Source: a virus (lineage: Duplodnaviria > Heunggongvirae > Uroviricota > Caudoviricetes). From it: 5,343 nucleotides of DNA. The notes under the pieces were generated by a model. The model did no database searches. It was not told the DNA's origin and worked only from the letters and a program-made list of their open reading frames with translations. Position 1 is the stretch's first letter. The number at the start of each line of letters is the position of its first letter. This document shows positions 1 to 5,256 of this stretch, piece by piece. The DNA lies in IMG/VR virus record IMGVR_UViG_3300023543_000090; one strand, 5' to 3'. The translations under genes and the position numbers were made by a program.

Positions 1-480
1 AGTACGCGCCCCACGCTGACGGTTTCTAACCTGTACGGTATGGTCACCGGGATGGTGGAAGATCTGCAGAGTCTGGTCGGCGGAACGGTGGTCAGGCGTA
101 AGGTTTACGCCCGTTTTCTGGATGCGGTGAATTTCGTCAACGGAAACAGTGATGCCGATCCGGAGCAGGAGGTGATCAGCCGCTGGCGCGTCGAGCAGTG
201 CAGCGAACTGAGCGCGGTCAGTGCCTCCTTTGTGTTGTCCACGCCGACGGAAACGGATGGTGCTGTTTTTCCGGGGCGCATCATGCTGGCCAACACCTGC
301 ACCTGGACCTATCGCGGTGATGAGTGCGGTTATAGCGGTCCGGCGGTCGCGGATGAATATGACCAGCCGACGTCCGATATCACGAAGGATAAATGCAGCA
401 AATGCCTGAGTGGCTGTAAGTTCCGCAATAACGTCGGCAACTTTGGCGGCTTCCTTTCCATTAACAAACTTTCGCAGTAA
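1..480 (+). CDS. L: Tail tip assembly protein L (gpL family), 5'-truncated by the window edge; C-terminal ~160 aa present
   Basis: Frame 1 is open from position 1 (STRPTLTVSNLYGMVTGM...) to TAA at 478..480. The translation ends ...NVGNFGGFLSINKLSQ, which I recognise as the C-terminus of lambda gpL. Six Cys residues lie in the C-terminal part (codons at 199..201, 298..300, 325..327, 394..396, 403..405, 415..417). It sits directly upstream of K with a 4-nt gap. Confidence 0.9.
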   Translation, partial: STRPTLTVSNLYGMVTGMVEDLQSLVGGTVVRRKVYARFLDAVNFVNGNSDADPEQEVISRWRVEQCSELSAVSASFVLSTPTETDGAVFPGRIMLANTCTWTYRGDECGYSGPAVADEYDQPTSDITKDKCSKCLSGCKFRNNVGNFGGFLSINKLSQ

Positions 481-484
481 TCCC

Positions 485-1228
485 ATGACAGAGACAGAAT
501 CAGCGATTCTGGCGCACGCCCGGCGATGTGCGCCAGCGGAGTCGTGCGGCTTCGTGGTGAGAACACCGGAGGGGGAAAGATATTTTCCCTGCGTGAATAT
601 CTCCGGTGAGCCGGAGGCGTATTTCCGGATGGCTCCGGAGGACTGGCTGCGGGCAGAAATGCAGGGTGAGATTGTGGCGCTGGTCCACAGTCATCCCGGT
701 GGTCTGCCCTGGCTGAGTGAGGCCGACCGGCGGCTGCAGGTGCAGAGTGATTTGCCGTGGTGGCTGGTCTGCCGGGGGGCGATTCATAAGTTCCGCTGTG
801 TGCCGCATCTCACCGGGCGGCGCTTTGAGCACGGGGTGACGGACTGTTACACGCTGTTCCGGGACGCTTACCATCTGGCGGGGATTGAGATGCCGGACTT
901 TTATCGTGAGGATGACTGGTGGCGTAACGGCCAGAATCTCTATCTTGATAATCTGGAGGCCACAGGGCTGTATCAGGTGCCGTTGTCAGCGGCGCAGCCG
1001 GGCGATGTGCTGCTGTGCTGCTTTGGTTCATCGGTGCCGAATCATGCCGCCATTTACTGTGGTGACGGCGAGCTGCTGCACCATATTCCTGAACAACTGA
1101 GCAAACGAGAGAGGTACACCGACAAATGGCAGCGACGCACACACTCCCTCTGGCGTCACCGGGCATGGCACGCATCTGCCTTTACGGGGATTTACAACGA
1201 TTTGGCCGCCGCATCGACCTTCGTGTGA
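485..1228 (+). CDS. K: Tail tip assembly protein K: N-terminal JAB/MPN (JAMM-type) domain plus C-terminal NlpC/P60-type cysteine peptidase domain. The start is ambiguous: 485 (MTETES..., 247 aa) or 629 (MAPEDW..., 199 aa, the classical lambda annotation)
   Basis: ORF in frame 2 ends at TGA 1226..1228. A JAMM-like motif HSHPGGLPWLSEAD (H-x-H-x7-S-x2-D) is encoded at 686..727. NlpC/P60-like residues are present: Cys in GVTDCYTLF (codon 845..847), His in PNHAAIY (1043..1045), and HH at 1079..1084. ATG 485 lies 4 nt after the L stop with no clear SD, suggesting translational coupling. ATG 629 has GGAGG at 613..617. Confidence 0.85.
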   Translation: MTETESAILAHARRCAPAESCGFVVRTPEGERYFPCVNISGEPEAYFRMAPEDWLRAEMQGEIVALVHSHPGGLPWLSEADRRLQVQSDLPWWLVCRGAIHKFRCVPHLTGRRFEHGVTDCYTLFRDAYHLAGIEMPDFYREDDWWRNGQNLYLDNLEATGLYQVPLSAAQPGDVLLCCFGSSVPNHAAIYCGDGELLHHIPEQLSKRERYTDKWQRRTHSLWRHRAWHASAFTGIYNDLAAASTFV

Positions 1229-1797
1229 AAACGGGGGCTGAAGCCATCCGCGCACTGGCCACACAGCTCCCGGCGTTTCGTCAGAAACTGAGCGACGGCT
1301 GGTATCAGGTACGGATTGCCGGGCGGGATGTCAGCACGTCCGGATTAACGGCGCAGTTACATGAGGCTCTGCCTGATGGCGCTGTGATTCATATTGTTCC
1401 CAGAGTCGCCGGGGCCAAGCCCGGAGGTGTATTCCAGATTGTCCTGGGAGCAGCCGCCATTGCCGGATCATTCTTTACCGCCGGAGCCACCCTTGCAGCA
1501 TGGGGAGCAGCCATTGGGGCCGGTGGTATGACCGGCATCCTGTTTTCTCTCGGTGCCAGTATGGTGCTCGGTGGTGTGGCGCAGATGCTGGCACCGAAAG
1601 CCCGGACGCCCACAGCGACCAGCACGGATAACGGTAAGCAGAACACCTATTTCTCCTCACTGGATAACATGGTTGCCCAGGGCAATGTTCTGCCCGTTCT
1701 GTACGGTGAAATGCGCGTGGGGTCACGTGTGGCATCTCAGGAAATCAGTACAGCTGATGAAGGTGATGGTGGTGAAATCGTGGTGATTGGTCGCTGA
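1126..1797 (+). CDS. I: Tail tip assembly protein I (gpI family; ubiquitin-like N-terminal region, Gly/Ala-rich hydrophobic C-terminal segment)
   Basis: 223-aa ORF in frame 1, ATG 1126 to TGA 1795..1797, beginning MAATHTLPLASPGMARICLYGDLQRFGRR..., which matches lambda gpI from memory. GAGG at 1111..1114 is a possible SD. It overlaps the 3' end of K by 103 nt in a different frame, as in lambda. Confidence 0.85.
   Translation: MAATHTLPLASPGMARICLYGDLQRFGRRIDLRVKTGAEAIRALATQLPAFRQKLSDGWYQVRIAGRDVSTSGLTAQLHEALPDGAVIHIVPRVAGAKPGGVFQIVLGAAAIAGSFFTAGATLAAWGAAIGAGGMTGILFSLGASMVLGGVAQMLAPKARTPTATSTDNGKQNTYFSSLDNMVAQGNVLPVLYGEMRVGSRVASQEISTADEGDGGEIVVIGR

Positions 1798-1854: not shown

Positions 1855-5256
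<3,402 letters not shown>

What the first reader, a model, noticed from the sequence alone, without database searches (positions are those of the whole stretch)
485..727. K probably starts at 485, not at the classical internal ATG 629: the N-terminal part of the JAB/MPN domain lies upstream of 629
The JAMM metal-binding motif HSHPGGLPWLSEAD is encoded at 686..727, only about 20 codons after ATG 629. JAMM/MPN folds normally need roughly 40-60 residues upstream of the H-x-H, including a conserved Glu. The in-frame extension from 485 supplies candidate Glu residues (ESCGF, TPEGER, GEPEA) and begins 4 nt after the L stop, consistent with translational coupling. ATG 629 does have a good SD (GGAGG at 613..617), so both products could be made.
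Basis: partly seen in the sequence, partly recalled or inferred. Interest (0 to 1): 0.45.

Follow-up and report, generated by a model that had tools for sequence, protein, structure and literature searches.

The report
Tail gene K starts at 485
The phage tail-assembly gene K in this window begins at ATG 485 and encodes a 247-residue two-peptidase protein; the textbook 199-residue version traces to one missing G in the 1982 lambda reference sequence, a correction that newer database records already carry.

Summary
ATG 485 lies 4 nt after the L stop.

Only the 247-aa product holds a complete JAB/JAMM domain. Its Pfam Prok-JAB score is 53 bits against 23 bits, below threshold, for the 199-aa form. 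Residues 1-48 supply helix 1, strands 1-2 and the catalytic Glu19 in the motif P-x-E-x-C-G.

I retrieved 47 homologous loci using the 199-aa part alone. All keep the frame open 42-52 codons upstream to an ATG. Glu19, Cys21, Gly22 and Phe47 are invariant. The codon at the position of Met49 is Ile or Val in 44 of 48 sequences, so those homologues have no start codon there.

The close relatives show purifying selection on 485-628 in the K frame. All indels at the junction lie in the 4-10 nt spacer.

The twist concerns the lambda reference. J02459/NC_001416 lacks one G at 14266/14267, which is window position 619. That puts ATG 14132 out of frame with K. Every independently resequenced lambda I examined has the G.

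This is an annotation correction, not new biology. A functional second product from ATG 629 is neither supported nor excluded.

The parts
478..480 (+). Stop codon (TAA) of tail gene L
   Evidence: Annotated as the end of minor tail protein L in related records.
481..484 (+). L-K intergenic spacer (TCCC), with no Shine-Dalgarno sequence
   Evidence: In 71 haplotypes all indels near the junction (1, 5 and 6 nt) fall in this spacer, so it is non-coding. The anti-SD duplex upstream of 485 is +0.6 kcal/mol.
485..1228 (+). Full K coding sequence, 247 aa plus TGA: JAB/JAMM domain followed by NlpC/P60 domain
   Evidence: Homologues are 237-250 aa. PGAP and recent GenBank records annotate 744 nt.
485..487 (+). 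Proposed K start codon ATG
   Evidence: ATG in 71 of 71 close haplotypes. Homologue N-termini lie 0-7 residues from this column in most of 102 proteins. All 47 independently retrieved loci have an ATG 42-52 codons upstream of the Met49 position.
485..628 (+). N-terminal 48 codons missing from the classical 199-aa K: helix 1 and strands 1-2 of the MPN fold
   Evidence: Alone it matches Prok-JAB profile positions 3-41, E = 3.5e-5. The AF2 model places helix 3-15 and strands 21-27 and 30-36 here, with pLDDT 97-99. Variable sites by codon position are 13/7/31 and pN/pS is 0.25.
539..541 (+). Codon for Glu19, the JAMM catalytic glutamate, in the motif P-x-E-x-C-G
   Evidence: Glu in 101 of 102 and 48 of 48 sequences. 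It aligns with the E-x-C-G of 2KKS.
613..617 (+). GGAGG, a Shine-Dalgarno-like sequence inside the Pro43-Glu44 codons
   Evidence: -9.5 kcal/mol, 11 nt before ATG 629. It is present in most close haplotypes but is made of coding bases.
619..619 (+). The G that is absent from the lambda reference J02459/NC_001416 (between 14266 and 14267)
   Evidence: Allen et al. 2011 Table S5.
629..631 (+). Met49 codon, the 'classical' K start
   Evidence: ATG in 68 of 71 close haplotypes; the others are ATA, ATC and CTG. Ile 39, Val 5, Met 4 among 48 sequences. Ile 63, Met 18, Leu 12 among 102 proteins.
686..727 (+). JAMM metal-binding motif H68-S-H70-x7-S78-x2-D81
   Evidence: His68, His70 and Asp81 are invariant; Ser78 is at 95% or more.
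815..1156 (+). NlpC/P60 (C40) peptidase domain, residues 111-224, with Cys121, His187 and His199
   Evidence: Pfam PF00877, 48.3 bits, profile 1-105 of 105. The triad is invariant. Foldseek matches to MepS/Spr.
1126..1797 (+). Gene I (ubiquitin-like tail assembly protein), overlapping the K 3' end in another frame
   Evidence: Pfam PF06805. An overlap of 58-106 nt is conserved in the 25 distant loci examined.

Best explanation
K is translated from ATG 485 as a 247-residue, roughly 28.3-kDa protein. It has two peptidase domains. Residues about 1-105 form a complete JAB/JAMM zinc metallopeptidase with Glu19, His68, His70, Ser78 and Asp81. Residues about 111-224 form an NlpC/P60 cysteine peptidase with Cys121, His187 and His199. 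The start codon has no Shine-Dalgarno sequence and sits 4 nt after the L stop, so initiation most likely depends on ribosomes that have just terminated on L (translational coupling; inferred). ATG 629 encodes an internal methionine, Met49, which replaces the Ile or Val found at that position in most of the family. The upstream GGAGG is made of the Pro43-Glu44 codons. The 199-residue 'classical' K arose because the 1982 lambda reference sequence lacks one G 10 nt before its ATG 14276, which breaks the upstream frame. As a working hypothesis for function, following Iyer et al. 2006 (PMC1779556), the JAB domain processes the ubiquitin-like domain of the neighbouring protein I during tail-tip assembly. 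That step is inferred, not shown.
For: Domain completeness:
- Prok-JAB scores 53.1 bits over profile positions 4-103 of 114 for the 247-aa form. The 199-aa form scores 23.2 bits over positions 63-103, below the gathering score of 25.
- phrog_2635 is covered over 2-133 of 135 by the long form and only 50-133 by the short form.
- The NCBIfam desampylase model is matched weakly, at 29.3 bits against a cut-off of 130, over 6-126 of 133, and only by the long form.
- 2KKS aligns from residue 7.

Structure:
- AF2 gives pLDDT 97.1 and pTM 0.91. Residues 1-48 form helix 1 and strands 1-2.
- Foldseek matches JAMM1 (5LD9/5LDA; TM-score 0.66-0.69 normalised to the target, rmsd 2.5-2.7), CSN5, Rpn11 and AMSH, and MepS/Spr for the C-terminal half.

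Retrieval blind to the extension:
- 47 genome loci were found with an alignment of the 199-aa part only.
- All are open for at least 42 codons upstream and have an ATG at 42-52 codons. The ORFs are 237-250 aa.
- Glu19, Cys21, Gly22 and Phe47 are invariant in 48 of 48 sequences.
- The codon at position 49 is ATT, ATA, ATC, GTT or GTC in 44 of 48. In several loci the far-upstream ATG is the only start codon available.
- The whole-library HMMER search shows that 35-50%-identical homologues of 230-260 aa align from query residues about 3-10.

Selection:
- In 71 close haplotypes, variable sites in 485-628 number 13, 7 and 31 by codon position.
- pN/pS is 0.25 in the K frame against 2.28 and 2.35 in the other two frames.
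- ATG 485 is invariant. The junction indels lie in the spacer upstream of ATG 485; inside K the only indels are single-base deletions in two sequences, the lambda reference (window 619) and L013 (571), and each breaks the frame.
- dN/dS of the extension against more distant relatives is 0.08-0.41.

Origin of the short annotation:
- NC_001416 has a 1-nt gap at window position 619.
- Sixteen contigs with no other difference from lambda across the part of 13900-15500 they cover carry the extra G, as does every other locus spanning the site. Twelve of the sixteen span all 1,601 nt.
- In the phage collection only J02459, NC_001416, OR474059 and OR974322 lack the G.
- The resequenced lambda PV340536 differs from NC_001416 at exactly 9 sites, including +G at 14267, and annotates K as 744 nt.
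- Allen et al. 2011 found the G in 232 of 235 reads.
- Feiss et al. 2022 report 9 differences from the Sanger sequence in laboratory lambdas.
- PGAP nt in E. coli Nissle.
Against: - I could obtain no direct evidence on translation initiation (ribosome profiling, N-terminal sequence, gel size).
- ATG 485 has no Shine-Dalgarno sequence, whereas ATG 629 has a strong one.
- Some automatic gene callers pick 629. Clusters of 199-aa predictions have thousands of members (P0057, P0062, P0063, P0074).
- AF2 also models the 199-aa form confidently (pLDDT 94.2), so structure prediction does not show that the truncated form would fail to fold.
- pN/pS of the extension (0.25) is higher than that of the rest of the gene (0.11).
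- The catalytic roles and the substrate of K are untested.
Confidence: 0.9

Rival explanations
1. Two products are made. The 247-aa protein is made from ATG 485. A biologically meaningful 199-aa isoform is also made from ATG 629 by internal initiation at the GGAGG. That isoform has an intact NlpC/P60 domain and a disabled JAB remnant. The arrangement would resemble lambda's in-frame nested pairs C/Nu3 and S107/S105.
For: The SD-like GGAGG at 613-617 has a predicted duplex of -9.5 kcal/mol and lies 11 nt before the ATG. Both ATG 629 and the GGAGG are kept in most of the 71 close haplotypes. Gene callers often choose this start. Lambda is known to use nested in-frame starts (NC_001416 annotates C/nu3 and S/S').
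Against: The start codon does not exist at this position in 44 of the 48 sequences of the locus set (window plus 47 loci), and in 3 of 71 close haplotypes it is ATA, ATC or CTG. Met is a conservative replacement for Ile, Leu or Val at a hydrophobic position. The GGAGG consists of the Pro43-Glu44 codons, and Pro43 is conserved for protein reasons in 71 of 102 proteins. The 11-nt spacing is longer than optimal. No sign of selection specific to an internal start was found.
Confidence: 0.12
2. The classical annotation is right for this window: only ATG 629 is used, and 485-628 is an untranslated or vestigial leader.
For: This is the historical lambda annotation. ATG 629 has a strong SD and ATG 485 has none.
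Against: The 199-aa product lacks the invariant catalytic Glu and three secondary-structure elements of the JAB fold. The segment 485-628 is under purifying selection in the K frame. Homologues lack any start at this position. The historical annotation rests on a reference sequence with one base missing.
Confidence: 0.02
3. K starts even further upstream, at GTG 410 or TTG 443. Both are in frame in this window and overlap the end of L.
For: The mechanical ORF runs 410..1228 (272 aa).
Against: In lambda and most relatives the L-K spacer is 1, 5 or 6 nt longer than here. That puts these codons in a different frame from K, so they cannot be conserved starts. Neither has an SD; the duplex upstream of 410 is +0.7 kcal/mol. 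Homologue N-termini line up with Met1 at 485.
Confidence: 0.02

Closest known systems
Bacteriophage lambda tail tip assembly protein K as annotated in J02459/NC_001416 (NP_040598, 199 aa)
   Same: It is the same gene in the same L-K-I-J context. The window DNA is about 95-96% identical to lambda-group phages, and residues 49-247 correspond to the annotated protein.
   Different: The reference protein lacks residues 1-48, because the reference DNA lacks one G at 14266/14267 and its upstream ATG 14132 is therefore out of frame. The window and all independently resequenced lambdas have the continuous 247-codon frame.
[quoted passage not shown]
   Same: It has the same two-domain architecture. It has the same neighbourhood, with the ubiquitin-like protein I and host-specificity protein J.
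   Different: Nothing differs in kind. The passages of that paper that I read describe the architecture and do not comment on the lambda start codon.
Archaeal JAMM1 / desampylase (P. furiosus JAMM1, PDB 5LD9/5LDA; NCBIfam NF041370)
   Same: It shares the MPN fold and the E...HxH...S..D motif. The TM-score is 0.66-0.69 normalised to the target over about 107 columns. There is weak sequence similarity over the whole domain. JAMM1 acts on a ubiquitin-like protein, which parallels the K-I pairing.
   Different: JAMM1 is a stand-alone domain with no NlpC/P60 fusion. The NCBIfam score is far below the family cut-off (29 against 130 bits), so K is not a member of that equivalog. The substrate of K is unknown.
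MepS/Spr-type NlpC/P60 (C40) endopeptidases (PDB 2K1G, 8XUP)
   Same: The fold and the Cys-His-His triad of the C-terminal half are shared.
   Different: MepS is a periplasmic lipoprotein that acts on peptidoglycan. K has no signal peptide evident in the sequence read here, is fused to a JAB domain and is not found in virions (PMC10721106).

Membership tests
JAB/JAMM metallopeptidase (Pfam PF14464 Prok-JAB) | Profile match above the curated gathering score, covering the whole domain | tested here: met
   The 247-aa form scores 53.1 bits against a cut-off of 25, over profile positions 4-103 of 114. The 199-aa form fails, at 23.2 bits over positions 63-103.
JAB/JAMM metallopeptidase (Pfam PF14464 Prok-JAB) | JAMM motif E-x(n)-H-S/T-H-x7-S-x2-D | tested here: met
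   The residues are Glu19, His68-Ser69-His70, Ser78 and Asp81. Glu19 is present in 101 of 102 and 48 of 48 sequences. His68, His70 and Asp81 are invariant.
JAB/JAMM metallopeptidase (Pfam PF14464 Prok-JAB) | MPN fold | tested here: met
   The AF2 model has pLDDT 97.1. Foldseek matches 5LD9/5LDA, CSN5, Rpn11, AMSH and 2KKS at probability 1.00. This rests on a predicted structure, not a solved one.
JAB/JAMM metallopeptidase (Pfam PF14464 Prok-JAB) | Zinc-dependent (iso)peptidase activity | not testable with these tools
   This needs biochemistry.
NlpC/P60 (C40) peptidase (Pfam PF00877) | Profile match above the gathering score, and a conserved Cys-His-His/polar triad | tested here: met
   The score is 48.3 bits against a cut-off of 23, over profile positions 1-105 of 105. 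Cys121, His187 and His199 are invariant in 48 of 48 sequences.
Lambdoid TAPK tail-assembly module (Iyer et al. 2006) | Gene order L - K - I (ubiquitin-like) - J | tested here: met
   The L stop is at 480. The I gene matches PF06805. The J ORF runs 1858-5256. Related records carry matching annotations.
In-frame nested gene pair (as lambda C/Nu3 or S107/S105) | Internal start codon and ribosome-binding site conserved among relatives | tested here: not met
   Position 49 is Ile or Val in 44 of the 48 sequences of the locus set (window plus 47 loci), and non-ATG in 3 of 71 close haplotypes.
In-frame nested gene pair (as lambda C/Nu3 or S107/S105) | Two polypeptides detected | not testable with these tools
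   I could reach no proteomic or ribosome-profiling data. The Liu et al. 2013 lambda ribosome-profiling paper is not held.

The most novel reading that the evidence does not exclude
In the lambda-proximal clade, the Ile49-to-Met change together with the GGAGG created a working internal start. Infected cells would then make both full-length K and a shorter K that keeps only the NlpC/P60 activity, and the ratio of the two would matter for tail-tip assembly. A related possibility is that the stock sequenced in 1982 really carried the 1-nt deletion and was viable. That would mean the JAB N-terminus is dispensable and a 199-aa K suffices.
Probability: 0.1. Interest if true: 0.5.

Novelty: already known. 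Interest (0 to 1): 0.25.

Why it matters
gpK is one of the last lambda morphogenetic proteins with no known mechanism. It is absent from virions and from all cryo-EM maps (PMC10721106, PMC12617516), and its F-pyocin counterpart is likewise unexplained. Anyone who clones, expresses, models or mutates K from the reference records works with a protein that lacks the catalytic glutamate and a third of the JAB domain. Those records are NC_001416 and, as I recall without checking here, the UniProt entry P03729. The JAB-plus-ubiquitin-like-I hypothesis cannot be tested with that construct. The correct 247-aa frame is already used by PGAP for prophages and in at least one resequenced lambda record. 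Some recent lambda-derived records still copy the 600-nt annotation even though their own sequence has the long frame open. The practical value is a corrected reference, not a new biological principle.

Tried and rejected
- AlphaFold2 of the 199-aa form, as a test of whether the truncated JAB remnant is unfoldable, did not discriminate. It gives a confident model (pLDDT 94.2) of the remaining elements, as expected from a method driven by co-evolution.
- A 30-sequence alignment of the 199-aa part was too diverse for the locus search. A 10-sequence version worked.
- The first viral-contig scan with the single 199-aa protein returned only relatives at least 96% identical. They were useful for polymorphism counts but not for deep conservation.
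- Literature searches found nothing on the start codon or on the consequence of the extra G, within the held library. The terms covered gpK with JAB, 'misannotated', '14266' and 'sequencing error'.
- The lambda ribosome-profiling paper (Liu et al. 2013) and the Casjens and Hendrix 2015 review are not held. I therefore cannot say whether they already state the correction.
- The MutaMouse lambda-gt10 paper did not cover this region.
- Upstream starts GTG 410 and TTG 443 were considered and rejected because spacer indels change their frame in relatives.

Full report
**What is in the window**

The window is the tail-tip region (end of L, then K, I, J) of a lambda-like phage. It is about 96% identical in DNA to phages of the lambda group and is not the lambda reference itself.

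- L ends with TAA at 478-480.
- An ATG at 485 follows after the 4-nt spacer TCCC.
- The frame stays open to TGA at 1226-1228, giving 247 codons.
- ATG 629 is codon 49 of that frame.
- GGAGG lies at 613-617.
- Positions 686-727 encode HSHPGGLPWLSEAD.

**Domain evidence**

Against Pfam, the 247-aa product matches Prok-JAB (PF14464) over profile positions 4-103 of 114. The score is 53.1 bits against a gathering score of 25. The 199-aa product matches only positions 63-103 at 23.2 bits, which is below the family threshold. The 48-residue extension alone matches positions 3-41 with E = 3.5e-5. The NlpC/P60 domain (PF00877) is complete in both forms.

Other libraries agree:
- PHROG profiles show the same pattern. 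phrog_2635 is covered over 2-133 of 135 by the long form and only 50-133 by the short form.
- The NCBIfam desampylase model is matched weakly, over its whole length, by the long form only.
- Among solved structures, the JAB domain 2KKS aligns from residue 7, with PAESCGF opposite PNEACGLL.

**Comparative evidence**

A HMMER search of 1.8 billion representative proteins found 2,749 relatives. The full-length ones at 35-50% identity are 230-260 aa and align from query residues about 3-10 to their own residues about 3-15.

In an alignment of 102 such proteins:
- Glu19 is present in 101.
- Gly22 and Asn38 are present in all.
- Cys21 is present in 96, Pro17 in 95 and Phe47 in 98.
- Residue 49, the classical Met, is Ile in 63, Met in 18 and Leu in 12.

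Those proteins were found with the long query, so I repeated the test blind to the extension. An alignment of only the 199-residue part retrieved 80 genome loci. Of these, 47 are diverged, with 51-88% protein identity. In all 47:
- The frame is open at least 42 codons upstream of the Met49 position.
- An ATG lies 42-52 codons upstream, and the ORFs are 237-250 aa.
- Together with the window (48 sequences), Glu19, Cys21, Gly22, Phe47, His68, His70, Ser78, Asp81, Cys121, His187 and His199 are invariant.
- The codon at position 49 is ATT, ATA, ATC, GTT or GTC in 44 of the 48 sequences.

Several loci have no other start codon anywhere between the far-upstream ATG and the HxH motif. In these relatives the long protein is the only possible product.

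**Selection in close relatives**

There are 71 distinct haplotypes of this region, taken from phage records and IMG/VR contigs:
- ATG 485 is invariant.
- Variable sites in 485-628 fall 13, 7 and 31 on codon positions 1, 2 and 3.
- pN/pS is 0.25 in the K frame, against 2.28 and 2.35 in the other two frames.
- All indels at the L-K junction (1, 5 and 6 nt) lie in the spacer between the L stop and ATG 485.

The spacer indels also rule out the in-frame GTG 410 and TTG 443 as starts, because their frame relative to K changes from phage to phage. Against more distant relatives, dN/dS of the extension is 0.08-0.41.

**Structure**

AlphaFold2 with the 102-sequence alignment gives pLDDT 97.1 and pTM 0.91. 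Residues 1-48 form helix 3-15 and strands 21-27 and 30-36.

Foldseek against the PDB matches the N-terminal half to P. furiosus JAMM1 (5LD9/5LDA). The TM-score is 0.66-0.69 normalised to the target, with rmsd 2.5-2.7 over about 107 columns. CSN5, Rpn11, AMSH and 2KKS also match. The C-terminal half matches MepS/Spr-type NlpC/P60 enzymes.

The 199-aa form would lack one helix, two strands and the catalytic Glu. A model of the 199-aa form is also confident (pLDDT 94.2), so structure prediction by itself does not discriminate between the two forms.

**Why the classical start exists**

The unexpected result is that in the lambda reference (NC_001416/J02459) the two ATGs are not in the same frame. 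Relative to the window and to 69 of the 70 other haplotypes, the reference has a 1-nt gap at window position 619. The reference reads GGAGGC-TATT where the others read GGAGGCGTATT. This lies 10 nt before its K start at 14276, so the ORF from ATG 14132 runs into a stop.

Independent sequences of lambda all carry the G:
- Sixteen contigs with no other difference from lambda across the part of 13900-15500 they cover carry it, as does every other locus spanning the site. Twelve of the sixteen span all 1,601 nt. Many are lambda DNA contaminants of about 48.4-48.5 kb in assemblies of unrelated bacteria, which makes them independent modern resequencings.
- In the phage collection only J02459, NC_001416, OR474059 and OR974322 lack the G. 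KT232076, LC730321, PV340536, lambda imm21, imm434 and h434 imm21, DE3, HK629 and HK630 all have it.
- PV340536, a lambda from an MG1655 lysogen, differs from NC_001416 at exactly nine sites, one of them +G at 14267.

Two publications bear on this. Feiss et al. 2022 (PMC9119081) state that laboratory lambdas share nine differences from the Sanger sequence. Allen et al. 2011 (PMC3059205, Table S5) list a G insertion at 14267 in 232 of 235 reads of ATCC lambda, without assigning it to a gene. From memory only, breseq's lambda test data report the same '+G at 14,266'.

The most economical reading is a base missed in 1982 at a GGCG run. A private mutation of the sequenced stock cannot be excluded by computation.

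Annotation practice is mixed:
- PV340536, NC_049948 and PGAP on E. coli Nissle nt.
- OM418625 and EU078592 keep the inherited 600-nt K even though their own sequence has the long frame open.

The K-type gene is very common. It occurs in 4,375 of 5,426 complete E. coli genomes, with a median of three copies.

**The internal start**

ATG 629 has a good SD-like sequence, with a duplex of -9.5 kcal/mol and 11 nt of spacing. ATG 485 has none. This explains why gene callers sometimes choose 629; clusters of 199-aa predictions have thousands of members.

Several points weigh against a functional internal start:
- The GGAGG is made of the Pro43-Glu44 codons.
- Met49 is a conservative, clade-specific replacement of Ile or Val.
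- Three close haplotypes have ATA, ATC or CTG at this codon.

I found no sign of selection for an internal start. Some initiation there cannot be excluded without experiments.

**How it most likely works**

- Shown by sequence and comparison: K is a 247-aa fusion of a complete JAMM domain and an NlpC/P60 domain.
- Inferred: initiation at 485 depends on coupling to termination of L. In 38 of the 47 diverged loci an upstream ORF of at least 100 codons could be placed near the K start, and it ends 1-12 nt before that start in 34 of them.
- Hypothesis from the literature (Iyer et al. 2006): the JAB domain cleaves the ubiquitin-like domain of the neighbouring protein I. This is compatible with two facts. 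Only residues 135-223 of gpI are resolved in the tail tip, and gpK is absent from virions (PMC10721106). It remains untested.

**Verdict**

The matter is an annotation correction that newer database records already embody, so novelty and interest are low. The useful addition is the explanation of where the 199-aa K came from, together with the warning that the reference records still encode a catalytically incomplete protein.

Noticed in passing
window 1126-1228 (K/I overlap); candidate starts of gene I at 1126, 1165 and 1225: Gene I has the mirror-image problem. Recent pipeline annotations (NC_049948, PV340536, RefSeq Nissle) start I at GTG 1225, with a 4-nt overlap with the K stop. That removes positions 2-25 of the ubiquitin-like domain profile PF06805. 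The profile begins at ATG 1165, and the classical ATG 1126 has an SD (-9.4 kcal/mol). In 25 distant loci the I frame overlaps the K 3' end by 58-106 nt, and the conserved N-terminus MAT(V/I)R(F/L)YGDL(Q/K)RFG starts 58-67 nt inside K. Most of those loci have no start codon at a 4-nt overlap.
   Followed up: partly
L084-L096, L098, L100, L108, L113, L116, L117, L135, L141 (genome-contig loci): Contigs identical or near-identical to lambda occur in assemblies labelled Pseudomonas, Shewanella, Neobacillus, Bradyrhizobium, Leeuwenhoekiella, Kitasatospora, Veillonella and others. Several are about 48.4-48.5 kb with roughly 1x coverage. They look like lambda control DNA contaminating genome assemblies.
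   Followed up: no
L170 (NC_001416) compared with L169 (PV340536) and L168 (LC730321): Besides +G at 14267, the resequenced lambda differs from the reference at 138 (delG), 20661, 22444, 25662, 31016, 31966, 34934 and 45618. That makes nine sites, the same set seen in Allen 2011 Table S5. LC730321 has further changes, including +C at 20833 in the stf region.
   Followed up: partly
L013 (IMG/VR contig), position equivalent to window 571: One close haplotype has a 1-nt deletion inside the K extension that frameshifts the gene after residue 28. It is either a decaying prophage or an assembly error.
   Followed up: no
window 481-484 and the equivalent spacer in L001-L083: The L-K spacer is length-polymorphic: TCCC here, ATCCC in lambda and most relatives, and a 10-nt form (ATCCCGGTTT or ATCCCATTTT) in a few. 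A few haplotypes have TGA instead of TAA as the L stop.
   Followed up: partly
P0253 (202 aa, 41% identity) and L128 (89% identity; upstream frame open for only 27 codons): Two relatives appear to lack the N-terminal part of the JAB domain. They may be truncated gene calls, frameshifts, or the degenerate NlpC/P60-only versions mentioned by Iyer et al. 2006.
   Followed up: no
L165 (OM418625, lambda imm21) and L166 (EU078592, DE3): These records contain the extra G, so the 247-codon frame is open in them. They still annotate K as 600 nt, with an RBS feature, apparently by transfer from the reference.
   Followed up: yes
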